From Patescibacteria group bacterium (GTDB lineage Bacteria > Patescibacteriota > Minisyncoccia > Minisyncoccales > Staskawiczbacteraceae), in contig JBBTQL010000004.1 of assembly GCA_038065715.1 (NCBI GenBank), positions 35,693 to 99,692 on the forward strand: 64,000 bases of DNA. Reading direction: 5' to 3'. Below are positions 5,071 to 59,337 of the stretch, piece after piece. The first letter of the stretch is position 1; each line of letters starts with the position of its first letter. The notes below the pieces were generated by a model. The model did not search any database and had not been told where the DNA came from. It saw nothing but the letters and a program-made list of their open reading frames with translations. Position numbers and translations under genes: made by a program.

Positions 5071-6084
5071 TTAAATTAATGGACTTTGATTGTTCTTTGG
5101 TTTAAGCCCAAAATGTTCATAGGCAAGTTTTGAGGCGACTCTGCCCTTTGGAGTTCTTTCAATAAAACCGCATTGCATCAAATAGGGTTCGTAAATATCT
5201 AAAATAGAATCTTCTTCTTCCATGGCAGCAGCCGACAAAGATTGAAGCCCCACTGGACCGCCGTTAAATTTTTCTATCAAAGCTTTTAATATAGATCTGT
5301 CGCTGGAATCTAACCCCATTTTATCCACTTCTAAAGAATTTAGCGCATCATTTGCAATTTCTTTTGTGATAAATCCATCACTTTTAACTTCTGCAAAATC
5401 TCTAACTCTTTTAAAAAGTCGGTTGGCAACCCTTGGAGTAAAACGAGACCTCTTTGCTATAATTTTTACGGCTTCTGGCTCAATCCCCACATTTAAAATT
5501 TTTCCTGACCTTTCAATTATTTTTTCAATATCTTCATTTGAGTAAAAATTTAATTGAAAAGTCGCGCCAAAGCGATTTCTTAAGGGCGAGGACAAAAGCC
5601 CGGGCCTTGTTGTGGCTCCAATCATTGTAAAATGAGGCAACTTTAATTCCATTGTTCTTGCCATAGGTCCTTTGCCTAAAATTAAATTAAGCTTGTACTC
5701 TTCCATGGCAGGATATAAATATTCTTCAACCGTTTTATTTATTCTATGTATTTCATCTAAAAACAAAACATCGCCTTCTGATAAATTAGTTAGAATTGCC
5801 GCCAAATCTCCGGCTCTTTCTACGGCAGGGCCCGAAGTCACCCTAATGGACTTGCCCATTTCATTGGCAACTAAATATGCCAGCGTGGTTTTTCCTAATC
5901 CAGAGTTCCCATAAAATAATAAATGGTCAGGCGACTGGCTTCTTTTTTTTGCCGCTGTTATTATTATCCTGATATTTTCTTTGATTTTTTCCTGGCCCAC
6001 ATACTCTTGCCAGTTTTTTGGTCGCAAAGCAGAATCCAGCGCGTTATCGTCATTGTTTATTTTTTCTGGTAAAACTCTTGACAT
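5071..6084 (-). CDS. ruvB: Holliday junction branch migration helicase RuvB
   Basis: 337 aa. Walker A GNSGLGKTTLA and Walker B LFLDEIHR; full-length RuvB-like organisation. Confidence 0.95.
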   Translation of the reverse strand: MSRVLPEKINNDDNALDSALRPKNWQEYVGQEKIKENIRIIITAAKKRSQSPDHLLFYGNSGLGKTTLAYLVANEMGKSIRVTSGPAVERAGDLAAILTNLSEGDVLFLDEIHRINKTVEEYLYPAMEEYKLNLILGKGPMARTMELKLPHFTMIGATTRPGLLSSPLRNRFGATFQLNFYSNEDIEKIIERSGKILNVGIEPEAVKIIAKRSRFTPRVANRLFKRVRDFAEVKSDGFITKEIANDALNSLEVDKMGLDSSDRSILKALIEKFNGGPVGLQSLSAAAMEEEDSILDIYEPYLMQCGFIERTPKGRVASKLAYEHFGLKPKNNQSPLI

Positions 6085-6169
6085 AAGCTTTATAAGGTGA
6101 TATAATTAAATTTATTGACGCCTACAATTTATTATAACAAATTTGTTCGTATTATTTATAGGTTTTGCT

Positions 6170-6306
6170 AAAACAGCTCTGGAGTTGGAGGTTTTATATG
6201 GGTTTGTCTCAGTTTCCGGGTAATCTTGCTCCGGCTCGATTATTCCTCAGACAAACTTTTACTTATGTCCCAGACATAAAGACACCTCCAACTCCAGAGC
6301 TGTTTT
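6170..6306 (+). other. 137-nt element closed by a perfect 23-bp inverted repeat (structured RNA or MITE-like element)
   Basis: AAAACAGCTCTGGAGTTGGAGGT (6170-6192) is the exact reverse complement of 6284-6306. Two internal hairpins (GTTTGTCT..AGACAAAC and TATGTC-CCA-GACATA). Confidence 0.55.
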
Positions 6307-6343
6307 CCCCCGTTTCTAGTTCTTTGTTTTTAGGAGAAACGCC

Positions 6344-6520
6344 ATGAGAAAAATATGTATTATCGGGCATTCCATTTCCTGGGTGGCAGTTGTTCTATAT
6401 ATACTTGCTTGCACTTTTGCACCAGAGTTGGCCGGAAAGCACAACTGGGCAGCAATACTGTCTTTCGCCGCTCTTGGGATGTTCTCTTTTCTCCACTTCT
6501 CAGTTGTTGATGCTAAATAA
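6344..6520 (+). CDS. Small hydrophobic two-TM protein (58 aa), below ORF-track cutoff
   Basis: AGGAGA at 6333-6338 lies 5 nt before ATG 6344. Sequence MRKICIIGHSISWVAVVLYILACTFAPELAGKHNWAAILSFAALGMFSFLHFSVVDAK, followed by a terminator hairpin. Confidence 0.55.
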   Translation: MRKICIIGHSISWVAVVLYILACTFAPELAGKHNWAAILSFAALGMFSFLHFSVVDAK

Positions 6521-6538
6521 ACATTCAACAACCTCACA

Positions 6539-6578
6539 AAAGTCCTAGTAGGCTTCGCCCAACGGACTTTATTTTTTT
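6539..6578 (+). terminator. Intrinsic terminator (convergent gene pair)
   Basis: AAAGTCC...GGACTTT stem with an inner GGC-TTC-GCC hairpin, followed by ATTTTTTT. Confidence 0.6.
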
Positions 6579-6581
6579 AAA

Positions 6582-7913
6582 CTAACCAGCTGGCTGCTCT
6601 TCGTCTTCCTCGACAACCCTCAAAACTTCTTCTAATGTTGTATCTCCTAAAACAACATCAATTAAACCCGACTGGTACATTGTGACCATCCCCTTTTTGA
6701 TGGCTAATTCCCTAATTGATGAAACTGGAGGATTAGTTAAAATAAATTTTTCCATTTGCGAGTCTACTAAAAATACTTCAAATAATCCCTGCCTTCCTTT
6801 ATATCCTGTAAAGTTGCAAGCCTCGCACCCTTTTTCTTTTGTTTTTGCAATTTGTATTTTATTTAAATCAGGAAGGATAATATCGTTGGGCAGATTTTTT
6901 AACCCTTTTTTTATTTCAGATAATTCGCTTGCAGTCGGCTTTGCAAGGGTTGAGCATTTTTTGCATACTTTTCTTACCAATCTTTGGGCTACTGTCATTT
7001 TTAATCCTGATGCGATTGATGACGGTTCTGTGCCTAGGTCCACAAGCCTTGGAATGGTGCCAGCAGCGTCATTAGTATGTAAAGTTGATAATACCAAGTG
7101 GCCAGTTAAAGCCGCTTGCAGGGCTATTTTAGCGGTTTCAAGGTCTCTAATTTCACCAACCAATATAACATCGGGGTCTTGCCTTACTATTGACCTTAGC
7201 CCGTCTGAAAAGTCATATCCTTTTTCTGGAGCCACTTGTGTTTGAGAAACGCCTTTTAAGTGATATTCAATCGGGTCCTCAATTGTGATAATTTTAATTT
7301 CTGGATTTTGAATCTTCATTAAAAAAGCGTAAAGAGTAGTTGTTTTTCCAGAACCCGTAGGACCTGTAACAATTATCATTCCATTGGGCTTTTCAATTTC
7401 TTTTTGAAAAATTTTATATAAATCTTTTCTTAATCCTAAAGAATCTAACCCAATTAAATTTTTTGGATTTAAAATTCTCATTACAATTGATTCGCCATAT
7501 TCAGCCGGCAGGCTGGAAGTTCTTATTTCTATTAATGAGTCCTCAATTTCTATGGTAAACCTTCCGTCTTGCGGCTTATCTGTGATATTTAATTTAAGCC
7601 TAGAGAGAAGCTTTAATCTGGAAATTAAGCTGTGATATATTTTTTCGTCAAAAAAAACAACGTCCTGTAAGACGCCGTCTAACCTTATTCTTAACCTTGA
7701 GTTATTTTCCTGCGGCTCTATATGTATATCAGAAGTATCAAGCGCTATGGCTCCAAACAAAATAACATCTAAAAGATTTGTGGTATTTTGCGTTATGTAT
7801 TCTTCTATCTTTGCTTTAAAATTGGAAATACTTTTAACATCTTTTTTTACTTCAACTATAACATCTTTTGAAATAGCTACGGTTCCTAATAATTTTTTCT
7901 TTGTTTCATTCAT
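6582..7913 (-). CDS. Type II/IV secretion / type IV pilus assembly ATPase (GspE/PilB family)
   Basis: 443 aa. Walker A GPTGSGKTTT, Asp box LVGEIRD, His box TGHLVLSTLHTN, and a tetracysteine motif CKKC...CEAC. Confidence 0.9.
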   Translation of the reverse strand: MNETKKKLLGTVAISKDVIVEVKKDVKSISNFKAKIEEYITQNTTNLLDVILFGAIALDTSDIHIEPQENNSRLRIRLDGVLQDVVFFDEKIYHSLISRLKLLSRLKLNITDKPQDGRFTIEIEDSLIEIRTSSLPAEYGESIVMRILNPKNLIGLDSLGLRKDLYKIFQKEIEKPNGMIIVTGPTGSGKTTTLYAFLMKIQNPEIKIITIEDPIEYHLKGVSQTQVAPEKGYDFSDGLRSIVRQDPDVILVGEIRDLETAKIALQAALTGHLVLSTLHTNDAAGTIPRLVDLGTEPSSIASGLKMTVAQRLVRKVCKKCSTLAKPTASELSEIKKGLKNLPNDIILPDLNKIQIAKTKEKGCEACNFTGYKGRQGLFEVFLVDSQMEKFILTNPPVSSIRELAIKKGMVTMYQSGLIDVVLGDTTLEEVLRVVEEDEEQPAG

Positions 7914-18363: not shown

Positions 18364-18410
18364 AAAAAAAGAGAGCTGAGGCCAATAAATTGGCTTCAGC
18401 TCTTTGCGTT
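18364..18410. terminator. Bidirectional terminator between convergent genes
   Basis: 13-bp stem AGAGCTGAGGCCA / TGGCTTCAGCTCT with an A-run upstream and a T-rich tail downstream. Confidence 0.75.
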
Positions 18411-18439: not shown

Positions 18440-18865
18440 CTACTTGTTGGTTTTAGCCGGCTCTTTTGGCGCTGGGAAAAGCTCCACAAACTTTTCCTTT
18501 GCCATTACTGGCACTTCTCTGATGCCCAGAGGCTGGGAAACCTTGGCGTAGAAAACTTTGCCCGAGCTGTCTTCAACAAGCAATAAGGTTTTCTTGTCTT
18601 TTGTCTGGCCCTCCCACATCACGTGGTAGATGTCCTCTTCTTTCGGGGTGGCATCAGAGGCAGTTGTTGGCGACTTTGCAGGAGGTGCTAATCCCTTTTG
18701 CACCAACAAAAACCCCGCAAAAGCGAACATGAAACAGAAAACAACAAACACTCCCAACAGCCATGGCCGTATTTCCCATTTGATGCCGTAGCTAAACGAC
18801 ATCAAAACGAAAAACCCAGCCACGATTATTACCGTCAGGCCAAAACAAATCTGAAGCACGTCCAT
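18440..18865 (-). CDS. GC-rich small membrane protein (2 TM plus soluble C-terminal domain), hypothetical
   Basis: ATG at 18865 is preceded by AGGGAG; the track uses an upstream ATG at 18904. Composition is clearly more GC-rich than the flanks. Confidence 0.6.
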   Translation of the reverse strand: MDVLQICFGLTVIIVAGFFVLMSFSYGIKWEIRPWLLGVFVVFCFMFAFAGFLLVQKGLAPPAKSPTTASDATPKEEDIYHVMWEGQTKDKKTLLLVEDSSGKVFYAKVSQPLGIREVPVMAKEKFVELFPAPKEPAKTNK

Positions 18866-18923
18866 TTTCAGACTCCCTATAGTAGGAACTTTTTGACGCA
18901 ACATAGTGTCGCGTTCTTTATTT

Positions 18924-18952
18924 ATAGTATCATATTATATAATGGTTGTCAA
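18924..18952 (-). promoter_or_regulatory. Sigma-70-like promoter with TG-extended -10
   Basis: On the minus strand: TTGACA, 17-nt spacer (..AATATGA), then TACTAT. Confidence 0.55.
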
Positions 18953-22343: not shown

Positions 22344-22562
22344 ATGTGTGATTTGAATGAGGCTCACGAAATAGCCAAGGTTGCATGGAAAAATTCTCCT
22401 ATGAAAAGTTCTTTGTCAAGAAAAAAATGCCCAAGATGTTTTGATAATTGGCAAAGAAATGGCTGCAAGGCAGAACAAAAGCCTCCCTATTTTCCTGCCG
22501 ATTATGAGGAAAATTGTCCTGTCTGTAAAAGCGAACTTTCTAGGCCAGGCATTCCTTTCTAA
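22344..22562 (+). CDS. Small Cys-rich (zinc-ribbon-like) protein, GC-richer than flanks
   Basis: ATG 22344 follows AAAGGAAAA. CPRC...CPVC pairs in 72 aa. A hairpin plus T-run follows at 22573-22598. Confidence 0.5.
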   Translation: MCDLNEAHEIAKVAWKNSPMKSSLSRKKCPRCFDNWQRNGCKAEQKPPYFPADYEENCPVCKSELSRPGIPF

Positions 22563-22788: not shown

Positions 22789-24039
22789 ATGAGGATAAAA
22801 GAAGCAGTTAAAAAAATATTAGGCAGAAATTTGTTGGGTTTTTATCATTATGGCATGGCTTTTTTGGGAGCTGTGATTTTTGGTTTTCCATCTAAAAATT
22901 TAACTGTTATAGGGGTTACAGGCACCAGCGGTAAATCAACTACTTCTGATTTTATCACAAGAATTTTAGAAGAACCCTTCGACGGGGCCCAGGGCAGGTC
23001 TGGCAATAAGGTGGCTTCAATTTCAACAATAAGATTTAAAATTGCAGAAAAAGAATGGGAAAATAAATATAAAATGACAATGCCCGGCCGTTTTGTTATT
23101 CAAAAGTTTTTAAGGCAGGCAAAAAAAGCAGGATGCAAATTTGTGGTTTTAGAAGTTACTTCGCAAGGCATTGAACAATATCGCCATAAATTTATAAATT
23201 TTGATACAGCTGTTTTTACTAATTTGTCGCCAGAGCATATTGAAAGCCATGGCAGTTTTGAAAATTACAGAAACGCAAAACTAAAACTATTTCGAGCAAC
23301 AAAAAACATCCATATTATAAATACTGATGACGCAAATTCAAAATATTTTTGGAATATTCCGGCAAAACAAAAAATTGGATTTTCAGCCAAAGATGCGCAA
23401 AACGCTAATTTAAAATTAAATTTAATTGGAGACTTTAATATTTTAAACGCCTTAGCGGCAATTTCTGCGGCAAAGGCATATGGCATTGATTTTAGCATTT
23501 GTAAAAGGGCGCTGGAAAAGGCCAAAGGAATTTCTGGCAGAATGGAAGTGATTCAAAAAGAGCCATTCAAAGTTATTGTTGACTATGCTCATACTCCAGA
23601 ACAACTCGAAAGTGTCTATAAGGCACTTTCTCAAAACCCAAAACCTCAAACTCCAAACCCCAAACTTATTTGTGTGCTTGGAAGTTGCGGCGGGGGAAGG
23701 GATAAATGGAAAAGGACTGTTTTAGGAGAAATTGCAAATAAATATTGCGACAAAATATTTATAACCAATGAAGATCCATATGATGAAAACCCCAACCAGA
23801 TTTTATCTGAAATAAAATCTGGAATTATCAATTCTCAATTTCCAATTTCCAATTTATATGAAATTTTAGACCGTAAAGAGGCAATTAAAACTGCAATAAA
23901 ATTAGCAAAATCAGATGATATTGTTATAATCACTGGCAAGGGTTCAGAATCCTGGATGTGCATAGCAAACGGTAAAAAAATCCCCTGGGACGACAGGCAA
24001 ATCGCTAAAGATGCGTTGGGGCTCCAAACCTTGACATAG
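22789..24039 (+). CDS. murE: Mur ligase, MurE-like UDP-MurNAc-tripeptide synthetase
   Basis: GVTGTSGKSTT P-loop, DYAHTP and GSCGGGRDKWKR. Carries in-frame repeat inserts at 22975-23004, 23630-23667 and 23835-23856. Confidence 0.8.
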   Translation: MRIKEAVKKILGRNLLGFYHYGMAFLGAVIFGFPSKNLTVIGVTGTSGKSTTSDFITRILEEPFDGAQGRSGNKVASISTIRFKIAEKEWENKYKMTMPGRFVIQKFLRQAKKAGCKFVVLEVTSQGIEQYRHKFINFDTAVFTNLSPEHIESHGSFENYRNAKLKLFRATKNIHIINTDDANSKYFWNIPAKQKIGFSAKDAQNANLKLNLIGDFNILNALAAISAAKAYGIDFSICKRALEKAKGISGRMEVIQKEPFKVIVDYAHTPEQLESVYKALSQNPKPQTPNPKLICVLGSCGGGRDKWKRTVLGEIANKYCDKIFITNEDPYDENPNQILSEIKSGIINSQFPISNLYEILDRKEAIKTAIKLAKSDDIVIITGKGSESWMCIANGKKIPWDDRQIAKDALGLQTLT

Positions 24040-24059
24040 ATGCTTTAATATGATATGAT
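24031..24059 (+). promoter_or_regulatory. Promoter of DGR-1 target gene
   Basis: TTGACA, 17 nt (TAGATGCTTTAATATGA), then TATGAT, with a TG-extended -10. Nearly identical to the promoter at 61997-62025. Confidence 0.65.
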
Positions 24060-24097
24060 TAATAATATAGCTCTTTTTTATTGTTACTTGCGAAATT

Positions 24098-24153
24098 GGC
24101 AGTTATAGCCAAAAGCTACTGAATTATATCGGTATCTTCTGGCTATGACTGCT
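24098..24153 (+). promoter_or_regulatory. Conserved 5' leader hairpin of DGR target mRNA (copy 1)
   Basis: 13-bp stem GGCAGTTATAGCC / GGCTATGACTGCT. The same stem occurs at 62068-62150 with A-U to G-U compatible changes and a larger loop. Confidence 0.6.
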
Positions 24154-24218
24154 ATGTCGGTACGTCAAGCAGAAACCAGCCTGTCATAATTGGCGGGCAA
24201 AACAGAAAGGAGATTGTC

Positions 24219-24878
24219 ATGGCTGTGCAAGTCATTGGCGATCTATATGTGGAGTTGGATGGGAAGTTGGCGGAGATTAAGCGGCAAATGAGGCAGCAGG
24301 GAGGCTATCCGTTTGACCCGGAGAAATTAAACAAGTTTCTCCAACTAGCTGTCGAGGGCAGGTTCAACGACAACCGGTGCTGGTGCGAGAAGGAAGGAGT
24401 GATCTACTTTGAGGTCACCTCTGACGGCACGACTGGACCCCAATGGATTGAGCGTCTGGAGAAGAAGGGTATCCAGCTCTCCAAGTGGGCCAAGGACGTC
24501 CTGCTGTCTCCGGACTTCAAGCCGACCAACGGCGTGACCACCGAGATCGCTGTCCTCAAGGGCGCGCTTTTTATGGACAATGATCGCATCACGTCTAAGA
24601 TCCGCGCTGAGGCCGACAAGCGCAAGCTCGTCAAGCCCGAAGCCGAACTCGGTTGCCTTATCCGCGACACGTTCACGGACGAGGAAATCGAAGCCATGGG
24701 TCTTGTGTGGATCGTGGCGTTCCACGAGCCCATCAAGGACTCTGACGGCGATCCGACGTTGCTCGGTGCGCGTCGCCTTGGCGATGGCCGTTGGCTGCGC
24801 GCGTGCTGCGGCCTGCCCGACCGCAGGTGGCTTCGCGACCGTGGCTTTGCCTTCGCCGTCTCGCAAGTATCTTCGTAA
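24219..24878 (+). CDS. DGR-1 variable (target) protein with C-terminal VR, no signal peptide
   Basis: 219 aa; RBS AAAGGAG before the ATG. Sampled 60-nt lines are about 60-65% GC versus about 30% for the genome. The C-terminal 42 codons are the VR. Confidence 0.85.
   Translation: MAVQVIGDLYVELDGKLAEIKRQMRQQGGYPFDPEKLNKFLQLAVEGRFNDNRCWCEKEGVIYFEVTSDGTTGPQWIERLEKKGIQLSKWAKDVLLSPDFKPTNGVTTEIAVLKGALFMDNDRITSKIRAEADKRKLVKPEAELGCLIRDTFTDEEIEAMGLVWIVAFHEPIKDSDGDPTLLGARRLGDGRWLRACCGLPDRRWLRDRGFAFAVSQVSS
24741..24866 (+). repeat. Variable repeat VR-1
   Basis: Gap-free 126-nt alignment with TR-1. There are 21 substitutions opposite TR adenines and one C/G difference; the last 25 nt are identical. Confidence 0.9.
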
Positions 24879-24974
24879 GTCCTTTGGGCTTGAGCCTTTG
24901 CTCTAGCCCTTGGATCCTCTGCCCTTTGCATTTCCTCACGGACTTGCACTGGGCAGATTTTTTTTGCTAAAATA

Positions 24975-25334
24975 TAAATGGTAATAGGTGAATCTTGCGG
25001 GAGATCAAGGTTTCCCGCGGCCGAATCCAGTATTCGTATGCTGAGAGCGTTTGCGATTAAGGTTGCAAACGGAGGGCATACGAATTACTTTCAAAAAAGA
25101 AGATACTTGGCGTGGGAAACTAGGGCATTACGATGCCGAATTCGATACAGCCCTGTGATCGTAAAACTACTTCAAGGGGCAGTGGCATAGATGGTTTCTT
25201 GCGTATTTCTGACGGCGATCCGAACTTGCTCAGTGCGAATCGCAATGACGATGGCCATTGGCTGAACGCGTACTACGACAAGCCCGACAACAGGTGGAAT
25301 CGCGACAATGGCTTTGCCTTCGCCGTCTCGCAAC
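24975..25334 (+). ncRNA. Putative DGR-1 template RNA (structured 5' region plus TR)
   Basis: Candidate promoter TTGCAC-18-TAAAAT (TG-extended) near 24940-24972. Extended hairpin at 25029-25089 and blocks conserved with locus 2 up to 14 nt before TR. Transcript ends are not determined. Confidence 0.5.
25209..25334 (+). repeat. Template repeat TR-1 (noncoding)
   Basis: Copy of the VR with A at 21 variable positions, mostly in AAC/AAT codons of the VR frame. No RBS or start codon. Confidence 0.9.
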
Positions 25335-25339
25335 TCTCT

Positions 25340-25699
25340 TCATTTCTCTCCTTGCTTAGGAGAGTTTTGTTTAATAATTTGTCCCGACCAACCACCGAGC
25401 ATTTTGCCAATTTCATCTAGTTTCAATGATAGAGCAATATATTTTTTGTTATCCAATGATTTTGTTTCCCAAAGAATCATTAAAAATATTTTTAACGTAT
25501 CGACCTTTCTAATTGCTAAACGTACATAGGACAATTTTTCTGATTGCCCAAGAAAACTTGCAGTCACTATTGCCTCTATTGCTTCAACAAAAAGTTTATC
25601 AATTTTTTCACCAAGAGAATATTTATGTATTTTTGGTATAATTAAATAGTGTTGGTACCAAAAAAGATAAGCTTCTTTCAACTTTTGCAAAACAGGCAA
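25340..25699 (-). CDS. avd: DGR accessory variability determinant (Avd-like four-helix-bundle protein)
   Basis: About 119 aa from a TTG start (LPVLQKLKEAYLFWYQ...). Homologous to the 122-aa ORF at 63274-63642. Helical pattern with C-terminal IGKMLGGW. The track ORF extends further upstream (25834), probably spuriously. Confidence 0.8.
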   Translation of the reverse strand: MPVLQKLKEAYLFWYQHYLIIPKIHKYSLGEKIDKLFVEAIEAIVTASFLGQSEKLSYVRLAIRKVDTLKIFLMILWETKSLDNKKYIALSLKLDEIGKMLGGWSGQIIKQNSPKQGEK

Positions 25700-25705
25700 C
25701 AGTCT

Positions 25706-25715
25706 GGGGGGGGGG
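25706..25715. repeat. Homopolymeric G10 tract in the avd/RT divergent gap
   Basis: G10 lies 6 nt from the avd TTG start and 24 nt before the RT ATG. The paralogous position in DGR-2 has G7. Confidence 0.9.
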
Positions 25716-25739
25716 ATTAAAAGCTGAGTTATTTTGATT

Positions 25740-38848: not shown

Positions 38849-38955
38849 ATTTTTCTTTAAGCTTAGCAGTTGTTTTATATTACCACAACTATTGACAAAT
38901 GTAAACAATGGGTGTATAATTAATATAATATGATCTGTTGATTTATTTCTCTGCC

Positions 38956-38996
38956 GTCCCCGGTCAGATTCGTCTGATCGAGGGCTTTTTTATTGT
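38956..38996 (+). terminator. Intrinsic terminator with UUCG tetraloop
   Basis: GTCCCCGGTCAGA-TTCG-TCTGATCGAGGGC followed by TTTTTTATT. Confidence 0.75.
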
Positions 38997-39152
38997 TTTT
39001 TTGTCCGTGTGCGGCTTTTTCACTCGAGTGAAAAAGCCGCACCTTTTGAAAATTAGAAACCCGCTTCGCCCGCGAAGCGAGGCGAGTTGAAAATTGAAAA
39101 TTAGCCCATGAGCCCTTTAAATTTTAGCTAAAATAAGGTAGACTAAGAAATA

Positions 39153-47376: not shown

Positions 47377-49041
47377 ATGAACAAAAAAGCAACTTTTATA
47401 TTGTTATTTATCGTTATTATGTTAGGTTTTTTAGGATTTTGGTATTACAGAAATACGATTTTTTCAAAAGAAATTTTAAAATTAGAAATCCTTGGACTTG
47501 ATTCTGCTAAAATGGGAGATGAAATTAAGTACACTGTAAAATATAAAAATAACGGCAATTTTGTTTTAGAGCAGCCAAAGCTGATTTTTGAGCTTCCTGA
47601 TAATTCTTTAACCGAGGACGGAAAAACAAGATTTGAAAAGGACCTAAAAGATATTTATCCTGGAGTTGAAGAAATTGTGCAATTTAACGGCAGGCTTCTC
47701 GGAAAAGAGGGCGACTTAAAAGTAGCCAAAGCCTCTCTTTCTTATATTCCAAAAAACATAACAGCCCGCTATGAATCAAGCACTACATTTACCACAAAAA
47801 TTGATGCTGTTGCCATAACTTTAGATTTTGATTTGCCTTCAAAAATAGAAAAAGGCAAGGAAATTTCTTATTCTCTTAATTATTTTTCTAACATAGATTA
47901 TCCTTTAGAAAATCTAAGCATGAAAATTGATTCTGTAAACGGTTTTAACTTTGAGTCGGCAACTCCCTCTTCATTAGATAATTCTGAATGGAAATTACAA
48001 ACATTAAACAAGGCCCAAGGTGGCAGGATAAATGTTAAGGGAGCAATTACGGCCTCTGCTAATAGCCGCATAATATTTGGCGCAACGCTTGGCGTATGGC
48101 AAAACGGAGCATTTATCGCAATAAAACAAACCAACGCAGATATTGAGGTTATTGATCCTTTATTATTTATATCGCAGCAAATAAACGGATCTTCTAATCA
48201 CATTGCTTCTCCCGGTGAAAAGCTGCATTATAAAATATTTTTTAGAAATATCGGCTCCAGTTCTTTTGATAATTTATTTATGATAGTAAGGTTAGACGGT
48301 TTAGCTTTTGATTTGTCTACGCTTCAGTCACAGCAAGGGCAAGCAAGGCCAAATGACAATTTAATTGTTTTTGATTCAAAACAAGTTTCAGAATTAACTC
48401 ATTTAAACCCCCAACAAGAAAACAAAGTTGAATTTGATGTTAAGTTAAAAGACAGCTGGCCTCCTGTTCCAGCTGAAAAAAACAATACAGTTATAAAAAG
48501 CAAGGTTAATATTTCTGATATCAGCCAGGAATTTGATACTAAAGTTAATTCAAGATTAGAAGTTTCTCAAAAAGCATATTACTCAAATCAAGGGAATGTA
48601 GAAAATTCAGGGCCTGTCCCTCCAGAGGTTGGCAAAGCTACCACATATACTATAGTTTGGCAGATTAAAAATTATTTTAACGATGTTAAGAATGTAAAGG
48701 TAAGAGCTGTTTTGCCCCAAGGCGTTGTTTTAACCGGGAAAATACTGCCAGACAATCAAATAGCCAATTTTTCTATGGATAATGGCAGCAGGGAAATTGT
48801 TTGGTCTGCTGGAGATATTTCAGCTGGCGCAGGAATTTCAAGTTCTGGGCCGTCATTATTTTTTCAGGTTTCTTCAACTCCAAGTTCTTTCCAAAAAGGA
48901 GGGACAGCGAGCCTTATTGGCCAGGCAACAATTTTTGGCGAAGACCAATTTACTAATTCCACTGCTCAAAGCAATGCGCCAGCGGCAGATACTAATTTGC
49001 CAGATGACCAAAATAATTCTGGCGGCGGAATCGTGCAGTAA
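47377..49041 (+). CDS. Membrane-anchored protein with repeated Ig-like (DUF11/CARDB-like) domains
   Basis: 554 aa with an N-terminal TM helix and repeated beta-rich segments. Confidence 0.5.
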   Translation: MNKKATFILLFIVIMLGFLGFWYYRNTIFSKEILKLEILGLDSAKMGDEIKYTVKYKNNGNFVLEQPKLIFELPDNSLTEDGKTRFEKDLKDIYPGVEEIVQFNGRLLGKEGDLKVAKASLSYIPKNITARYESSTTFTTKIDAVAITLDFDLPSKIEKGKEISYSLNYFSNIDYPLENLSMKIDSVNGFNFESATPSSLDNSEWKLQTLNKAQGGRINVKGAITASANSRIIFGATLGVWQNGAFIAIKQTNADIEVIDPLLFISQQINGSSNHIASPGEKLHYKIFFRNIGSSSFDNLFMIVRLDGLAFDLSTLQSQQGQARPNDNLIVFDSKQVSELTHLNPQQENKVEFDVKLKDSWPPVPAEKNNTVIKSKVNISDISQEFDTKVNSRLEVSQKAYYSNQGNVENSGPVPPEVGKATTYTIVWQIKNYFNDVKNVKVRAVLPQGVVLTGKILPDNQIANFSMDNGSREIVWSAGDISAGAGISSSGPSLFFQVSSTPSSFQKGGTASLIGQATIFGEDQFTNSTAQSNAPAADTNLPDDQNNSGGGIVQ

Positions 49042-56135: not shown

Positions 56136-57569
56136 ATGTTTGGCAAAAAGAAAAAGTTTTATATAACGACAACTTTGCCCTATGTTAATGCCGACCCGCA
56201 TCTCGGCCATATTTTAGAATTTGCGCAAGCAGATGTGGCTGCGCGATATCATAAGTTATTAGGCTATGATGTATTTTTTAATACAGGCGTTGACGAGCAC
56301 GGATTAAAAATTTATCAAAAAGCGCAGGAAAGAAAATTAGATCCGCAGGAATATTGCGATATTTATGCTAAAAAATTTGATAATTTAAAAAGCGCGTTTA
56401 ATCTAAGCTATAATAGTTTTATTAGAACCACAGACGAACATCACATTAAAGCCGCGCAAGAATTTTGGCGACGATGCCAAAAGAACGGGGATATTTATAA
56501 AAAAATATATAAAATAAAATATTGCATCGGCTGCGAATTAGGAAAAACTGAATCAGAAATAGTTGGCGGCAAATGCCCCATACACCCAAATTTAGAAATA
56601 GAAATTATTGAAGAAGAAAATTATTTTTTTAAGTATTCAAAATATCAAAAATCACTTTTAAATTTTTATAAAAAAAATGCAGATTTTGTTGTTCCAGAAT
56701 CAAGATTTAACGAAATAAAAGAATTTACTAAAAGAGGTTTGGAAGATTTTAGCATATCCAGACTAAAAGAAAAAATGCCATGGGGCGTTCCAGTTCCCGA
56801 TGATAACAATCATATTATGTATGTTTGGTTTGATGCCCTTGTAAATTATATTTCTGCTTTAGGCTGGCCTGAAAATTCAAAACAATTTAAAGATTTCTGG
56901 CCAGGACTCCAAATAGCAGGAAAAGACAATCTTCGCCAGCAGTCTTCAATGTGGCAAGCTATGCTTATGTCTGCTGGACTGCCAAATTCAAAACAGATTT
57001 TTATTCATGGATTCATTACGGTAAATGGGCAAAAAATGTCAAAGAGCTTGGGAAATGTAATTGACCCGTTTGAGTTAGTAAAAAAATATGGAACAGATGC
57101 CGCGCGTTATTATTTATTGAGAGAGATTTCTCCAACAGAAGACGGCGATTTTACTTATGAAAAATTTGAGCGAAGATATAATTCAGATTTAGCTGGAGGA
57201 ATAGGAAATTTAGTTGCAAGAACAATGGCTCTGTTTTTAAAACTGAATATAAAGACAAAAAAACCAAGCTTGTTTATAAAAAAGGCAGTAGAAAAGGCCA
57301 ATAAAGATTGTTTTGGCTTTTTAGAAAATTACAAATTCAGCGATTCATTAAAATCAATTTGGGAGCTTATTTCTTTTTGCGACAAATATATAAATAATGA
57401 AAAGCCGTGGGAAAACAATGGCAGTTCTTTGCAAGTTATTTCAGATGTAATTTTTGCTTTGGAAAATATTGTAGAATTATTGAGTCCATTTTTGCCAGAA
57501 ACATCAGAGAAGATTAAAAAAATAATTAAAGCCGGAAAAAATTCAGAAATTCTATTTCTAAGGATTTAA
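56136..57569 (+). CDS. metG: Methionine--tRNA ligase
   Basis: PYVNADPHLGH (HIGH) and KMSKSLGN. Confidence 0.95.
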   Translation: MFGKKKKFYITTTLPYVNADPHLGHILEFAQADVAARYHKLLGYDVFFNTGVDEHGLKIYQKAQERKLDPQEYCDIYAKKFDNLKSAFNLSYNSFIRTTDEHHIKAAQEFWRRCQKNGDIYKKIYKIKYCIGCELGKTESEIVGGKCPIHPNLEIEIIEEENYFFKYSKYQKSLLNFYKKNADFVVPESRFNEIKEFTKRGLEDFSISRLKEKMPWGVPVPDDNNHIMYVWFDALVNYISALGWPENSKQFKDFWPGLQIAGKDNLRQQSSMWQAMLMSAGLPNSKQIFIHGFITVNGQKMSKSLGNVIDPFELVKKYGTDAARYYLLREISPTEDGDFTYEKFERRYNSDLAGGIGNLVARTMALFLKLNIKTKKPSLFIKKAVEKANKDCFGFLENYKFSDSLKSIWELISFCDKYINNEKPWENNGSSLQVISDVIFALENIVELLSPFLPETSEKIKKIIKAGKNSEILFLRI

Positions 57570-57600
57570 AGGTGTTTTTTAGTTGTACTTGTTGACGCTA

Positions 57601-57629
57601 TTGACTTTATTTTAGCATTATGATATCAT
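57601..57629 (+). promoter_or_regulatory. Promoter of csrA
   Basis: TTGACT, 17 nt (..CATTATGA), then TATCAT, with a TG-extended -10. Confidence 0.55.
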
Positions 57630-57698
57630 AAAAGTAACTCTTTATTTCAGTCAAGATGACCGAAAAGAGTTAGACCCCCCCAGAAAGGAGAGTGCAAG

Positions 57699-57953
57699 AT
57701 GCTGGTTTTGTCCCGCAAGAAGAACGAGAGCATTGTCATCAACGACGATATCACGATTGTCGTGATAGAAATCCGCGGCGACAAGGTTCGCCTCGGCATT
57801 GATGCGCCAAAAGAGGTGCCTGTCCACCGGCGCGAAGTGTTTGACGCGATACGTCGCGATGATGCTTCAGCAGCTAGTACGGGGATTAAAACCTCCGAGA
57901 CCCCCGATAATCTGGAGGATCCCGCCGAGGAAAGCCCTCAAGACCCAGGTTAA
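57699..57953 (+). CDS. csrA: Carbon storage regulator CsrA, GC-rich island
   Basis: MLVLSRKKNESIVINDDITIVVIEIRGDKVRLGIDAPKEVPVHRREVF, plus an acidic, Pro-rich tail. RBS AAAGGAGAG. Confidence 0.85.
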   Translation: MLVLSRKKNESIVINDDITIVVIEIRGDKVRLGIDAPKEVPVHRREVFDAIRRDDASAASTGIKTSETPDNLEDPAEESPQDPG

Positions 57954-57988
57954 TTCTTGGGAACACAGCACAAGGCGCGAAAGCGCAT

Positions 57989-58018
57989 AACGGATAACCG
58001 CTGGTTATCCGTTTTTTT
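57989..58018 (+). terminator. Intrinsic terminator
   Basis: AACGGATAACC-GCT-GGTTATCCGTT followed by a T-run. Confidence 0.9.
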
Positions 58019-58036
58019 ATTTGTTATTATAAAAAC

Positions 58037-58945
58037 ATGATTATTGATACACATTCTCATTTAAGTTTTAAGGCATATGATAGCGATAGAGATGAGGTTA
58101 TAAAACGCACTCAAAAAGAGGGTGTTGTTTGTATTGATGTTGGCACAAAATATGAAACAAGCAAAAGGGCAGTTGAATTAGCAGAAAAATATGAAAATAT
58201 ATATGCAGCCGTTGGAATGCATCCAATTCATATAAAAACAGATTTATTAAAATTAAAATTAGACAAAGAAGAGGGCGCATTTGCTCCGCTTGGCGAAGAG
58301 TTTGATAAAGCGAAATACAGAGAACTTGTTATAAATAGTGAAAAAAAAGCCGAAGGTCCTAACTCGAGAAGGACCGAAGGCTCTGAGGAGCTAAAGCGAC
58401 GAAGAGTGGTAGCGGTTGGTGAAATTGGATTAGACTATTATTATAAGCCAAAAGGAACAGCTAAAAAAGAACAATTTAAAGAAAAACAAAAACAAGTTTT
58501 TTTACAGCAATTAGAATTGGCAGAAGAATTAAATTTACCGGTAATTGTTCATTGCAGAATGGCGCATCAGGATGTTATAGAAATTTTGAAAAATAAAAAT
58601 GTTGAAGGAGTTATTCATTGTTTCACAGGAAATTGGGAAGAAGCGCAAAAATATATAGATTTAGGATTTTATATTGGCTTAAACGGAATTATTTTTTCTG
58701 CCCTAGGCAGACCCGCCTCGGGCGGGAAATTACCGCTAGATGATGTTGTTACGCAGTGTCCCCTAGATAAAATTTTAACAGAAACAGATTGCCCATATTT
58801 AACACCCTTGCAGGAAAACGGAAAAAGAAACGAACCGATTTTTGTAAAACACGTTATTCAAAAAATCGCTGACTTAAAAAGTGTTAGTTTCGCCGAAGTT
58901 GCCGACAAAACTACCCAAAACGCCAAAAAATTATTTAATATTTAA
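58037..58945 (+). CDS. tatD: TatD-family metal-dependent hydrolase
   Basis: MIIDTHSHL; 302 aa. Inflated by GC-rich inserts at about 58343-58400 and 58712-58726. Confidence 0.9.
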   Translation: MIIDTHSHLSFKAYDSDRDEVIKRTQKEGVVCIDVGTKYETSKRAVELAEKYENIYAAVGMHPIHIKTDLLKLKLDKEEGAFAPLGEEFDKAKYRELVINSEKKAEGPNSRRTEGSEELKRRRVVAVGEIGLDYYYKPKGTAKKEQFKEKQKQVFLQQLELAEELNLPVIVHCRMAHQDVIEILKNKNVEGVIHCFTGNWEEAQKYIDLGFYIGLNGIIFSALGRPASGGKLPLDDVVTQCPLDKILTETDCPYLTPLQENGKRNEPIFVKHVIQKIADLKSVSFAEVADKTTQNAKKLFNI

Positions 58946-58998: not shown

Positions 58999-59337
58999 TC
59001 AACGGTCCACAATGCGCGTAACACACCATTCTTTCAAAACATCTTCTGACACACTATAAACAATGGTGTATACCGTTTTTCCGTGTTCATCTTTTGATGT
59101 TAGCACGGCCATGTTTTTTTTGAAGTCGGCGAAGTATAAGTTGTATGTTACACCTGCTTTGATCATCTCGCCTTCGGAAACAGGATTTTGAGATTTGACC
59201 ATTTCCATGATTGTCAAAGAAAGTTGGTCAATTTGACGCTGTTGGTCAATAAATTGTCCCATAAGAGTGACATAAACAATCGTCACAGTTACAAGAAAAA
59301 CACCAAAATGTGTTGGGGCAGTAAGAATTCTTTTCAT
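58999..59337 (-). CDS. GC-richer small membrane-anchored hypothetical protein
   Basis: 112 aa with an N-terminal TM helix. RBS GGAGGTG, its own promoter and a leader hairpin. Confidence 0.55.
   Translation of the reverse strand: MKRILTAPTHFGVFLVTVTIVYVTLMGQFIDQQRQIDQLSLTIMEMVKSQNPVSEGEMIKAGVTYNLYFADFKKNMAVLTSKDEHGKTVYTIVYSVSEDVLKEWCVTRIVDR

What the first reader, a model, noticed from the sequence alone, without database searches (positions are those of the whole stretch)
18440..18952. Scattered GC-rich monocistronic islands in an AT-rich genome
Seen in sequence:
- Six short genes are conspicuously GC-richer than their surroundings. Sampled 60-nt lines are about 47-65% GC, compared with AT-rich neighbouring lines as low as 12%.
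- They are 18440-18865(-), 22344-22562(+), DGR target 1 (24219-24878), csrA (57699-57953), 58999-59337(-) and DGR target 2 (62202-62822).
- Five of the six have their own strong promoter of the same form: TTGAC(A/T), 17 nt with TG-extended -10, then TAnnnT.
- All six have their own terminator or hairpin, so each is an independent transcription unit wedged between housekeeping genes.
- The avd and RT genes of the DGRs are AT-rich like the host genome.
- The two small membrane-anchored proteins (18440 and 58999) have a similar layout: TM segments followed by a short beta-rich domain.

Inference: these may be cargo acquired from a high-GC donor, conceivably the host organism of an episymbiont, placed under native promoters. 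Alternatively a compositional constraint may be linked to DGR targeting.
Basis: partly seen in the sequence, partly recalled or inferred. Interest (0 to 1): 0.6.

Follow-up and report, generated by a model that had tools for sequence, protein, structure and literature searches.

The report
Conserved GC-rich genes in AT-rich bacterium
Four short, separately transcribed genes in this AT-rich groundwater Patescibacteria genome really are GC-rich, but they are not recent foreign imports: the same genes sit in the same places and are just as GC-rich in distant relatives, so something keeps these particular genes GC-rich over long evolutionary time.

Summary
The window is a 34.5% GC Parcubacteria/Patescibacteria contig from Hainich groundwater.

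**Observation.** Four of the six listed genes are strong compositional outliers, with GC3 0.58-0.75 against 0.28 for the background:
- the focal gene 18440-18865(-)
- csrA
- the two DGR target genes

The other two (22344-22562 and 58999-59337) are not outliers.

**Recent HGT fails its own refutation test.**
- The focal gene encodes a small membrane protein with two TM helices and a beta domain. Its family is known only from Patescibacteria. It lies in conserved synteny (uvrB/ruvA - gene - large ORF - rpsT - holA) and is GC-rich in three other genomes.
- csrA lies in the same aaRS-csrA-tatD slot in a Staskawiczbacteria genome and is equally GC-rich there. Its fourfold sites are as saturated as those of the flanking genes.
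- In 29 of 29 related Patescibacteria DGR loci the non-VR part of the target is GC-richer than both the RT and the flanks.
- Eight phage DGRs show no such excess, so the effect is not intrinsic to DGRs.

**Best reading.** A gene-specific, long-maintained GC-rich equilibrium. Each unit has a consensus extended -10 promoter and a 5' stem-loop; a clear intrinsic terminator was found for csrA and the focal gene. I favour selection on the mRNA, for example for nuclease resistance. That step is inferred, not shown.

**Side findings.** DGR-target leaders carry a conserved 20-26 bp hairpin. A conserved poly-G tract lies upstream of the RT.

The parts
18924..18952 (-). Promoter of the focal gene: TTGACA, 17 nt, TG-extended TACTAT
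   Evidence: 10 of 12 matches, TG present. The same architecture stands upstream of the orthologs in L086, L088 and L090.
18896..18914 (-). 5'-proximal stem-loop in the focal gene leader (8 bp, loop CUA)
   Evidence: leader MFE -14.2, z=-3.0. The leaders of the orthologs have an 8-11 bp hairpin at the same position with a different sequence.
18440..18865 (-). Focal GC-rich gene: a 141-aa membrane protein with two TM helices (3-25, 34-58), a linker, and a four-strand beta domain (79-119). Its function is unknown.
   Evidence: GC 0.479, GC3 0.577. The SD sequence GGGAG lies 8 nt upstream of the ATG at 18865. The family is small, with 14 relatives among 1.84e9 representatives. AF2 model with pLDDT 66. 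Syntenic GC-rich orthologs.
18364..18403 (-). Intrinsic terminator after the focal gene (14-bp stem, T-run), shared with the convergent 646-aa gene
   Evidence: Read directly from the sequence. Equivalent hairpins with T-runs follow the orthologs.
24031..24059 (+). Promoter of DGR target 1 (TTGACA, 17 nt, TG-TATGAT)
   Evidence: 11 of 12, the best match in the region.
24083..24154 (+). Conserved DGR-target leader: TACTTGCG box followed by a long hairpin (24097-24154)
   Evidence: MFE -35.7; z=-5.4. The box and hairpin recur in related loci.
24219..24878 (+). DGR target gene 1 (219 aa); VR at 24741-24874
   Evidence: GC 0.582, GC3 0.736; non-VR part GC3 0.747. VR/TR pair with 21 of 24 mismatches at TR adenines.
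25208..25341 (+). Template repeat 1, followed by a hairpin terminator at 25346-25364
25340..25834 (-). avd 1 (bAvd domain at residues 50-150 of this ORF; the true start is probably internal)
   Evidence: PF22296, E=3e-11.
25706..25715 (+). G10 tract between avd(-) and RT(+)
   Evidence: present in 55 of 71 related loci.
25740..26726 (+). DGR reverse transcriptase 1, AT-rich (GC 0.29)
   Evidence: RVT_1, E=1e-24.
57601..57629 (+). csrA promoter (TTGACT, 17 nt, TG-TATCAT)
57635..57672 (+). 5'-proximal stem-loop of the csrA leader
   Evidence: An equivalent stem-loop is present in L176.
57699..57953 (+). csrA (84 aa), GC 0.541, GC3 0.600
   Evidence: Pfam CsrA, E=4.8e-26. Syntenic GC-rich ortholog in L176/L177.
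57989..58020 (+). csrA intrinsic terminator (11-bp stem plus T-run)
61998..62026 (+). Promoter of DGR target 2 (TTGACA, 17 nt, TG-TATGAT)
   Evidence: 11 of 12.
62053..62150 (+). DGR-target leader 2: TACTTGCA box followed by a long hairpin (62068-62150), homologous to leader 1
   Evidence: MFE -37.8.
62202..62822 (+). DGR target gene 2 (206 aa from the ATG at 62202; the ORF is open from 62142); VR at 62704-62820
   Evidence: GC 0.573, GC3 0.681; VR/TR pair.
63165..63281 (+). Template repeat 2, followed by a hairpin at 63288-63308
63274..63642 (-). avd 2. A G7 tract follows at 63649-63655. RT 2 starts near 63686 and runs off the window.
   Evidence: bAvd, E=3e-9; genes called in L002.
22344..22562 (+).
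   Evidence: GC3 0.315, p=0.28; no Pfam hit.
58999..59337 (-).
   Evidence: GC3 0.363, z=1.6; no BLASTP similarity to the focal protein.

Best explanation
The four real GC-rich islands are resident genes conserved within the lineage, not recent foreign cargo. Each is its own transcription unit with a consensus TTGACA / TG-extended -10 promoter and a stem-loop in the leader. A clear intrinsic terminator was found only for csrA and the focal gene. The coding sequence is kept GC-rich at all three codon positions.

The same genes are GC-rich in the same genomic slots in other AT-rich Patescibacteria, even though their synonymous sites have turned over completely. A gene-specific force must therefore hold them at a GC-rich equilibrium against the AT-biased mutation pressure that shapes their neighbours.

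**Shown**
- The outlier composition.
- Conserved synteny.
- The same composition in orthologs.
- Saturation of synonymous sites.
- Decoupling of DGR-target GC from host GC, while RT GC tracks it.
- Absence of the effect in phage DGRs.

**Inferred (about 0.3-0.35 on its own)**
The force is selection on the transcript. A GC-rich, A-poor body bounded by a 5' stem-loop and a 3' hairpin would resist AU-directed endonucleases and exonucleases. That would give long-lived mRNAs for a global RNA-binding regulator (CsrA), the DGR variable proteins and a small envelope protein, in very small, slow-growing cells.

The focal gene itself encodes a 141-aa protein with two TM helices and a beta domain. Its biochemical function is unknown, and the family is known only from Patescibacteria.
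For: **Composition**
-.

**Focal gene**
- The family is small. Its two source-named members are both Patescibacteria, and other members come from Hainich groundwater contigs.
- Orthologs at 27-36% protein identity to the window lie in conserved synteny: uvrB or ruvA, then the gene, then a convergent large ORF with no Pfam hit, then rpsT, then holA.
- They have GC 0.42-0.48 and GC3 0.40-0.57, against GC3 of about 0.16-0.38 for their immediate neighbours. L086 also holds a separate GC-rich cluster 6 kb away.
- UvrB is 73% identical between these genomes.
- Fourfold sites are at or near random identity in comparisons with the window, and less so between relatives.

**csrA**
- The order proS...M16 peptidase, AI-2E transporter, aaRS, csrA, tatD is the same in Staskawiczbacteria L176/L177. 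There csrA has GC 0.549 and GC3 0.633, against 0.23-0.38 for neighbours.
- Flanking proteins are 63-74% identical.
- Fourfold-site identity in csrA is 0.32-0.41 against 0.29-0.31 expected at random. The flanks give 0.38-0.45 against 0.28. Yet GC4 is 0.52-0.76 in csrA and 0.29-0.35 in the flanks.
- In 73 non-Patescibacteria csrA genes, GC3 tracks flank GC (slope 1.86, r=0.85). The gene therefore has no intrinsic GC requirement. The window and L176 lie 8 sd above that line.

**DGR targets**
- In 29 of 29 related loci the non-VR part of the target has higher GC (mean 0.543; GC3 0.66) than the RT (0.362; 0.39) and the flanks (0.412).
- RT GC tracks flank GC (slope 0.93, r=0.87). Target GC does so only weakly (slope 0.45, r=0.51).
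- GC3 is flat along the CDS and drops upstream of it.

**Not general translational selection**
- rpsT, tig and clpP in the relatives have ordinary GC3.

**Transcript architecture**
- Promoters.
- 5' stem-loops.
- Terminators.
Against: - No direct evidence bears on mRNA stability or abundance.
- With a synonymous-codon shuffle as the null, island coding sequences are not more structured than control genes (z about -2.1 against -1.25). Any benefit would come from composition alone.
- No nuclease-type k-mer is specifically avoided.
- GC1 and GC2 are shifted as well as GC3. That fits a force acting on the DNA, such as biased gene conversion or repair, at least as well as selection on the RNA.
- 5' UTRs are only moderately GC-enriched.
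- Only a few highly expressed control genes could be examined.
- The focal-gene evidence rests on four genomes, and the csrA synteny evidence on two lineages plus L020.
- csrA is more than 90% identical over its domain to Planctomycetota csrA, so an old inter-phylum transfer remains likely for that gene.
Confidence: 0.55

Rival explanations
1. Recent horizontal acquisition from a high-GC donor, possibly the host of an episymbiont, with the cargo not yet ameliorated.
For: - Codon usage and amino-acid usage of the islands resemble a 55-60% GC organism.
- The closest csrA genes among 185,579 species genomes are overwhelmingly Planctomycetota, with 85-91% identity over the domain. Their csrA GC matches their own genomes.
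- The csrA C-terminal tail in L176 resembles that of one Planctomycetia MAG.
- DGR cassettes are sporadic: the corresponding slot in L086 has none.
Against: - The focal gene has relatives only in Patescibacteria and is syntenic and GC-rich in four genomes.
- csrA is syntenic and GC-rich in a relative whose flanking proteins are 63-74% identical.
- Fourfold sites are saturated.
- Codon identity to any Planctomycetota csrA is at most 0.6, like background comparisons.
- No integrase or tRNA gene is next to the islands, and no direct repeats were seen around the two DGR loci.
- RT composition has equilibrated to each host while the adjacent target has not.
Confidence: 0.08
2. A compositional constraint imposed by the DGR mechanism itself. 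Examples are adenine avoidance to escape A-mutagenesis, or a GC-rich template or target transcript required for retrohoming.
For: - In 29 of 29 related DGR targets the gene is GC-rich outside the VR.
- A3 is depleted more strongly than T3 in both window targets: 0.09-0.11 against 0.16-0.21.
- The GC-rich block runs from the target start through the spacer to the TR terminator, as if target and TR formed one transcript.
- A conserved leader hairpin occurs only upstream of the two DGR targets in the window.
Against: - Eight phage or viral DGRs, including AT-rich ones, show target GC3 close to RT GC3 and ordinary flank GC.
- csrA and the focal gene show the same anomaly. In relatives no DGR lies within 8-10 kb of them.
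- There is no gradient of GC3 toward the VR.
- T3 is also depleted, which pure A-to-N mutagenesis would not produce.
Confidence: 0.12
3. GC-biased gene conversion or repair at local recombination hotspots. These loci recombine often between strains, and mismatch repair biased toward GC raises GC at all codon positions.
For: - All three codon positions are shifted.
- The focal protein and the DGR targets evolve fast, as expected for diversifying surface or interaction proteins.
- A strain-level recombination breakpoint lies just upstream of csrA (L004).
- The only SNP cluster in 4.7 kb between two strains lies inside the focal gene.
Against: - From my own knowledge, reported GC3 effects of recombination in bacteria are a few percent, not 0.28 to 0.6-0.75.
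- Boundaries follow the coding sequence or transcript closely.
- The CsrA domain is extremely conserved, which does not fit a diversifying locus.
- The population evidence is anecdotal.
Confidence: 0.13
4. Rare-codon translational control. GC-ending codons are rare in this genome, so these genes are translated slowly, or only when particular tRNAs are available. This would form a small regulon, comparable to bldA/TTA control in Streptomyces.
For: - Island genes use codons that are rare elsewhere. Examples (island against background): ATC 0.61 against 0.06, CGC 0.50 against 0.11, CTC+CTG 0.50 against 0.09, AAG 0.71 against 0.15.
- The enrichment is strongest within the coding sequence.
Against: - GC1 and GC2 are also shifted, which codon choice alone does not explain.
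- The shift is a general rise in GC rather than enrichment of a few codons.
- The very strong promoters suggest high expression rather than throttled expression.
- The tRNA gene set could not be examined; the window has no tRNA genes.
Confidence: 0.1
5. Chance, amino-acid composition, or an assembly artefact.
For: Two of the six listed genes are indeed within normal variation.
Against: - Binomial p values are 6e-10 to 5e-45 at third positions.
- Identical sequence was assembled from several independent samples.
- The same pattern appears in unrelated datasets.
Confidence: 0.01

Closest known systems
Horizontally acquired genomic islands with atypical GC and codon usage (the amelioration framework of Lawrence and Ochman; from my own knowledge)
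   Same: Short blocks whose GC and codon usage differ sharply from the host. For csrA, the closest relatives are in another, high-GC phylum.
   Different: - The genes are syntenic and equally GC-rich in diverged relatives.
- Synonymous sites are saturated.
- There are no mobility genes, tRNA genes or flanking repeats.
- The composition behaves as an equilibrium, not as a decaying signal.
Patescibacteria-restricted, cell-encoded DGRs (DGR clade 2 of Roux et al. 2021, PMC8144416)
   Same: RT, avd, and a TR/VR pair with adenine-specific mismatches. The VR lies at the 3' end of a short target gene. The elements are chromosomal, in a Patescibacteria genome.
   Different: I did not find the following features described in the DGR papers I could read:
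- a GC-rich target next to an AT-rich RT
- a TACTTGCG box plus a 20-26 bp leader hairpin
- a poly-G tract upstream of the RT

Clade membership itself was not tested by phylogeny.
GC-rich stable RNA genes (rRNA, tRNA, tmRNA) in AT-rich genomes (from my own knowledge)
   Same: Composition is decoupled from genomic mutation bias and conserved across lineages, presumably through selection on the RNA product.
   Different: These are protein-coding mRNAs. There is no specific conserved fold in the coding body and no Rfam match.
The Borrelia vls antigenic-variation locus, which is GC-rich in an AT-rich genome (from my own knowledge)
   Same: A diversification locus whose GC content is far above that of its AT-rich host genome and is maintained there.
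   Different: - The diversification mechanism differs: segmental gene conversion rather than retrohoming.
- Here non-variable genes (csrA and the focal gene) share the anomaly.
- No consistent GC skew was seen.
5' stem-loop mRNA stabilisers such as the ompA, ermC and aprE leaders (from my own knowledge)
   Same: A stem-loop in the leader of a monocistronic mRNA with a strong promoter, a few nucleotides from the predicted start for csrA and the focal gene and about 30-45 nt downstream for the DGR targets. A clear terminator was seen for csrA and the focal gene.
   Different: - The function has not been tested here.
- The DGR-target hairpins are much longer, at 20-26 bp. They could instead be RNase III substrates, or cruciforms acting at the DNA level.

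Membership tests
Recently acquired horizontal-transfer island | Composition and codon usage atypical for the host | tested here: met
   GC3 is 0.58-0.75 against 0.28, for four of the six listed genes.
Recently acquired horizontal-transfer island | Absent from the syntenic position in related genomes | tested here: not met
   The focal gene is present in the same slot in L086, L087/L088 and L090. csrA is present in the same slot in L176/L177, and is followed by tatD in L020.
Recently acquired horizontal-transfer island | Closest homologs in a distant, compositionally matching donor, with unsaturated synonymous sites | tested here: not met
   - Focal family: relatives only in Patescibacteria.
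- csrA: closest relatives are Planctomycetota, but codon identity is at most 0.6 and fourfold sites are saturated.
Recently acquired horizontal-transfer island | Mobility signatures such as an integrase, a flanking tRNA gene or direct repeats | tested here: not met
   The window has no tRNA genes. No integrase appears among the genes called in the csrA-to-DGR2 part of the window. The only direct repeats found around the two DGR loci are the VR/TR pairs.
Diversity-generating retroelement | Reverse transcriptase gene | tested here: met
   RVT_1, E=1.2e-24, for 25734-26726. RT2 is called in L002.
Diversity-generating retroelement | TR/VR repeat pair whose mismatches fall at TR adenines, with the VR at the 3' end of a target ORF | tested here: met
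   Two pairs, each with 24 mismatches, 87.5% at TR adenines. The VRs end 2-4 nt before the stop codons.
Diversity-generating retroelement | Accessory variability determinant (Avd) | tested here: met
   bAvd (PF22296), E=3e-11 and 3e-9. The first reaches Pfam's cut-off (44.0 bits against 40); the second is just below it (37.8 against 40).
Diversity-generating retroelement | C-type lectin fold in the variable protein | not tested
   No Pfam or PDB sequence match for either target. No structure was predicted.
CsrA/RsmA RNA-binding regulators | Full-length CsrA domain | tested here: met
   PF02599, E=4.8e-26, residues 1-52 matching profile positions 1-52 of 53. The protein contains the conserved stretch GIDAPKEVPVHRREV.
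CsrA/RsmA RNA-binding regulators | Binds GGA motifs and regulates translation | not testable with these tools
   GGA motifs are present in the L020 csrA leader, but no binding data exist.
Translationally selected codon bias of highly expressed genes | Other highly expressed genes share the same bias | tested here: not met
   rpsT, tig and clpP in the related loci have GC3 0.21-0.38, like their neighbours. Only a few such genes were available.
Structured non-coding RNA mistaken for a gene | Rfam match, or folding beyond what composition predicts, together with no coding signal | tested here: not met
   - The only Rfam match in the window is tmRNA.
- z-scores against a synonymous shuffle are similar to those of control genes.
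- Protein families are conserved.

The most novel reading that the evidence does not exclude
AT-rich Patescibacteria maintain a small, defined set of 'hardened' transcription units whose GC-rich composition is actively kept at equilibrium over long evolutionary time. The set includes csrA, the clade-specific DGR variable-protein genes and a conserved small envelope protein. This would be a previously undescribed form of gene-specific compositional selection or biased repair.

The Patescibacteria DGR cassette would have its own regulatory anatomy: a GC-rich target (perhaps co-transcribed with the TR), a conserved TACTTGCG box with a 20-26 bp leader hairpin, and a length-variable poly-G tract that could switch avd and RT expression on and off.
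Probability: 0.3. Interest if true: 0.8.

Novelty: new variant of a known kind. Interest (0 to 1): 0.6.

Why it matters
Atypical GC and codon usage are routinely read as evidence of horizontal transfer, including in surveys of Patescibacteria and of DGRs. Here the same signal is a conserved, vertically inherited property of specific genes. Composition-based HGT calls in these genomes will therefore produce systematic false positives.

If a selective or repair mechanism holds chosen genes at GC3 0.6-0.75 inside genomes at 0.28, that gives a tractable case for studying selection on synonymous sites and mRNA design in ultra-small, uncultured bacteria.

The contrast within the cassette (GC-rich target, AT-rich RT), the conserved leader hairpin and the poly-G tract are concrete, testable features of the Patescibacteria DGR clade. 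They may bear on how these retroelements are expressed and controlled.

Tried and rejected
**Dead ends**
- A genome-contig scan with the neighbouring 646-aa protein found no relatives.
- Cluster look-up of csrA relatives returned no names.
- PDB sequence searches with both DGR targets gave nothing.
- The first RNA-fold script timed out.
- Paul et al. 2017 is not held in the library. Searches of the accessible DGR and Patescibacteria literature found no description of the target/RT GC contrast.

**Tests with negative results**
- A scan for avoided k-mers (the nuclease-motif idea) showed only off-frame stop codons and homopolymers under-represented.
- The test for a specific RNA structure in the coding bodies was no different from controls.
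- A recent Planctomycetota-to-Patescibacteria csrA transfer was suggested by the shared tail of L176 and L027, but codon identity of 0.57 is not above background.
- Homology between the two small membrane proteins: none.

**Ideas considered and rejected**
- A-to-N retro-mutagenesis of whole transcripts as the cause of A depletion. Rejected because T3 is also depleted, and because non-DGR genes and genomes share the effect.
- csrA as intrinsically GC-rich. Rejected because its GC3 tracks genome GC in 73 other genomes.
Full report
**Source and setting.** The window has 34.5% GC. It carries a tmRNA but no tRNA genes. Exact-protein look-ups place it on contigs from Hainich groundwater wells; L002 is 100% identical to the window from position 47699 to its end at 64000. 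A source names the organism 'Patescibacteria group bacterium'. Flanking housekeeping proteins are 63-74% identical to those of a Candidatus Staskawiczbacteria genome.

**Checking the observation.**
- Forty background genes of at least 165 aa have pooled GC3 0.278 (sd 0.033, maximum 0.354).
- Four of the six listed genes are far outside this range.
  - 18440-18865(-): GC3 0.577.
  - DGR target 1: GC3 0.736, and 0.747 outside the VR.
  - csrA: GC3 0.600.
  - DGR target 2: GC3 0.681.
  - Binomial p values run from 6e-10 to 5e-45.
- Genes 22344-22562 (GC3 0.315) and 58999-59337 (GC3 0.363) are within or barely above normal variation.
- GC1 and GC2 are raised too.
- Codon usage changes across the board, for example ATC 0.61 against 0.06, AAG 0.71 against 0.15 and CGC 0.50 against 0.11. 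A3 drops most.
- The four real islands each carry TTGAC[AT], 17 nt, then TGnTAnnAT. These are the best promoter matches in their regions.
- csrA and the focal gene have clear intrinsic terminators.
- Both DGRs are real. Each VR/TR pair has 24 mismatches, 87.5% at TR adenines. There is an RVT_1 reverse transcriptase and bAvd proteins encoded on the opposite strand.
- The two small membrane proteins are not detectably related.

**The focal gene.**
- The protein is 141 aa. The start at 18865 follows a GGGAG Shine-Dalgarno sequence.
- A word-indexed search of 5.8e9 proteins found only its own strain variant.
- An exhaustive HMMER search of 1.84e9 representatives found 14 relatives of about 110-200 aa, most of them 126-139 aa.
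- A profile search recovered named members from 'Parcubacteria group bacterium Licking1014_1' and 'Patescibacteria group bacterium'.
- The conserved C-terminal motif is roughly EKDFYxVxWEExTxxGKTxVxxKDSSGxLYxxEFxEPLGVKKVLVVxKERFxPLLP.
- The decisive result is context. In three other genomes the ortholog lies between uvrB (or ruvA) and a convergent large ORF with no Pfam hit, followed by rpsT and holA. This matches the window's arrangement of uvrB, the focal gene and the convergent large ORF.
- The large ORFs are themselves weak homologs of one another.
- Each ortholog is again the local GC outlier: GC 0.42-0.48 and GC3 0.40-0.57, against about 0.16-0.38 for its immediate neighbours.
- Each has the same promoter form, a 5'-proximal hairpin and a terminator.
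- Protein identity to the window is 27-36%, while UvrB is 73% identical. Fourfold sites are at or near random identity in comparisons with the window.

**csrA.**
- The protein is a full-length CsrA.
- Among one genome for each of 185,579 species, the best 80 relatives are overwhelmingly Planctomycetota, plus a few Patescibacteria.
- In Planctomycetota, csrA GC matches the genome. Across 73 non-Patescibacteria loci, csrA GC3 tracks flank GC (slope 1.86, r=0.85). The gene therefore has no built-in GC requirement.
- In AT-rich Patescibacteria it stays GC-rich. The window and L176 lie 8 sd above the regression line, and L020, L028 and L049 lie 5-6 sd above it.
- In Staskawiczbacteria L176/L177 csrA occupies the same slot (M16 peptidase, AI-2E transporter, aaRS, csrA, tatD). 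There it has GC3 0.633, against 0.23-0.38 for neighbours.
- Fourfold-site identity between the window and L176/L020 csrA is 0.32-0.41, against 0.29-0.31 expected by chance. This is comparable to the flanking genes (0.38-0.45 against 0.28). Yet GC4 is 0.52-0.76 in csrA and 0.29-0.35 in the flanks.
- No Planctomycetota csrA shows unsaturated synonymous similarity.
- An old inter-phylum transfer is plausible, but it cannot explain why the gene is still GC-rich.

**DGR targets.**
- A metagenome scan with RT1 returned 80 related loci at 58-76% RT identity.
- My VR/TR finder recovered both window DGRs when tested on the window. In the related loci it identified 29 non-redundant complete targets with usable flanks.
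- In 29 of 29 loci the non-VR part of the target is GC-richer than both the RT and the flanks.
  - Target: GC 0.543, GC3 0.66.
  - RT: GC 0.362, GC3 0.39.
  - Flanks: GC 0.412.
- RT GC follows host GC (slope 0.93, r=0.87). Target GC follows it only weakly (slope 0.45, r=0.51).
- GC3 is flat, at 0.60-0.74, from the first 30 codons onward, and GC falls to 0.35-0.46 upstream of the start.
- As a control, eight phage or viral DGRs, including AT-rich crAss-like phages, Bacillus phage BalMu-1 and Psychrobacillus phage Perkons, show target GC3 close to RT GC3 and ordinary flank GC.
- The contrast is therefore specific to this Patescibacteria DGR lineage. That lineage is plausibly the Patescibacteria-restricted 'clade 2' of Roux et al. 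(PMC8144416), but I did not test this by phylogeny.
- A scan of 584 ORFs in 41 AT-rich Patescibacteria loci flagged mostly DGR targets, csrA and the focal family, with only a few others.

**What keeps them GC-rich.**
- Orthologs are saturated at synonymous sites yet retain the composition, and a gene less than 1 kb away (the RT) equilibrates to the host. So a gene-specific force is needed.
- General translational selection is unlikely, because rpsT, tig and clpP are ordinary.
- A DGR-intrinsic cause is unlikely, given the phage controls and the two non-DGR genes.
- A specific RNA fold in the coding body is not supported, and no k-mer is conspicuously avoided.
- What the units share is their architecture. 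Each has a consensus extended -10 promoter, a stem-loop in the leader and a GC-rich, A-poor body. The stem-loop lies near the predicted 5' end in csrA and the focal gene and further downstream in the DGR-target leaders. A clear strong terminator was found for csrA and the focal gene.
- I therefore favour selection for nuclease-resistant, long-lived mRNAs. This is an inference, with a probability of about one third.
- GC-biased conversion is a serious rival. All codon positions are shifted, and there are hints of local recombination.
- Rare-codon control and a DGR-linked constraint remain possible for subsets of the genes.

**Comparison with what is known.**
- The pattern mimics a horizontally acquired island but fails the defining tests: presence or absence in relatives, donor similarity and mobility signatures.
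- It resembles the decoupled GC of stable RNA genes, and the GC-rich Borrelia vls locus (both from my own knowledge).
- I found no description of the target/RT contrast in the DGR papers I could read. Wu et al. 2018 discuss GC deviation of whole DGRs only as evidence of HGT.

**Side findings.**
- Leaders of the two window targets are homologous to each other. Many related leaders share a TACTTGCG box followed by a 20-26 bp near-perfect hairpin whose sequence varies between loci.
  - Nine of nine related-locus leaders selected by eye and folded have z of -5 or lower.
  - 26 of 32 leaders have an 80-nt MFE of -25 or lower, against 72 of 232 controls (Mann-Whitney p=3e-11).
- A G6-G12 tract lies 20-40 nt upstream of the RT start in 55 of 71 related loci, where 0.028 per 160 nt is expected. 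One near-identical pair of loci differs in tract length, and one locus has a (TG)9 repeat there instead. This suggests a phase-variable switch, which is untested.

**Verdict.** The HGT reading is not supported. The 'constraint' reading is right in spirit but is not specific to DGRs. The finding is a conserved, gene-specific compositional anomaly of unknown mechanism. It is moderately to highly interesting, and it is a practical warning against composition-based HGT calls in these genomes.

Noticed in passing
window 24083-24154 and 62053-62150; related loci L094, L098, L105, L106, L113, L114, L119, L125, L142, L146 and others: The 5' leaders of Patescibacteria DGR target genes carry a conserved TACTTGCG box. 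It is followed by a 20-26 bp near-perfect hairpin whose sequence differs between loci (MFE -22 to -39 kcal/mol, z -5 to -11). 26 of 32 leaders have such a hairpin, against 72 of 232 control upstream regions. In the window it occurs only upstream of the two DGR targets.
   Followed up: partly
window 25706-25715 (G10) and 63649-63655 (G7); 55 of 71 related loci: A conserved poly-G tract (G6-G12) lies 20-40 nt upstream of the RT start, in the gap between the divergent avd and RT genes. The near-identical loci L149 and L151 differ in tract length (G9 against G10), and L141 has (TG)9 there instead. It may be a slipped-strand phase-variation switch for avd and RT.
   Followed up: partly
window 18531-18535 compared with L001: A strain variant from another sample differs from the window over 4.7 kb by only four substitutions, apart from a short run of N in L001. 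Three of them are clustered inside the focal gene, and the fourth is in uvrB.
   Followed up: no
window 56397-57306 compared with L004: Contig L004 is 100% identical to the window across csrA and tatD (57300-58643) but only 95.7% identical in the aaRS gene just upstream. This suggests a recombination breakpoint between strains next to csrA, or a chimeric assembly of two strains.
   Followed up: no
window 38938-39090: A GC-rich intergenic stretch (GC 0.48) beside the tmRNA gene contains a perfect 17-bp palindrome at 39009-39042. It has no Rfam match and could be an unannotated small RNA or a terminator.
   Followed up: no
window 6084-6582: An intergenic region of raised GC (0.42) holds only a doubtful 73-aa ORF (6316-6537, GC3 0.46). 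It is a possible non-coding RNA, with no Rfam match at gathering threshold.
   Followed up: no
L020 3476-4774(-); L086 16612-20245; L098 12677-12919: Other GC-rich genes occur in related AT-rich genomes. One is a 432-aa ORF with no Pfam hit directly upstream of csrA in a Staskawiczbacteria MAG. Another is a radical-SAM/SPASM cluster with GC 0.48-0.52. A third is an 80-aa membrane protein. These may be true HGT islands or further members of the same phenomenon.
   Followed up: no
L176 8001-8237 compared with L027: The variable C-terminal tail of the Staskawiczbacteria CsrA (NEAMAAKQAPAKADTAEPADEDDES) closely resembles that of one Planctomycetia MAG (NEATTAKQAPAKADTVEPADES). Codon identity is only 0.57, which points to an old link between the two phyla rather than a recent one.
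   Followed up: partly
window 24879-25345 and 62823-63285: The GC-rich block continues from each target's stop codon through the spacer to the hairpin terminator after the TR. The scan listed no promoter in the DGR1 spacer and only a weak 9-of-12 match (62971-62998) in the DGR2 spacer. The target and TR may therefore be co-transcribed from the strong target promoter.
   Followed up: no
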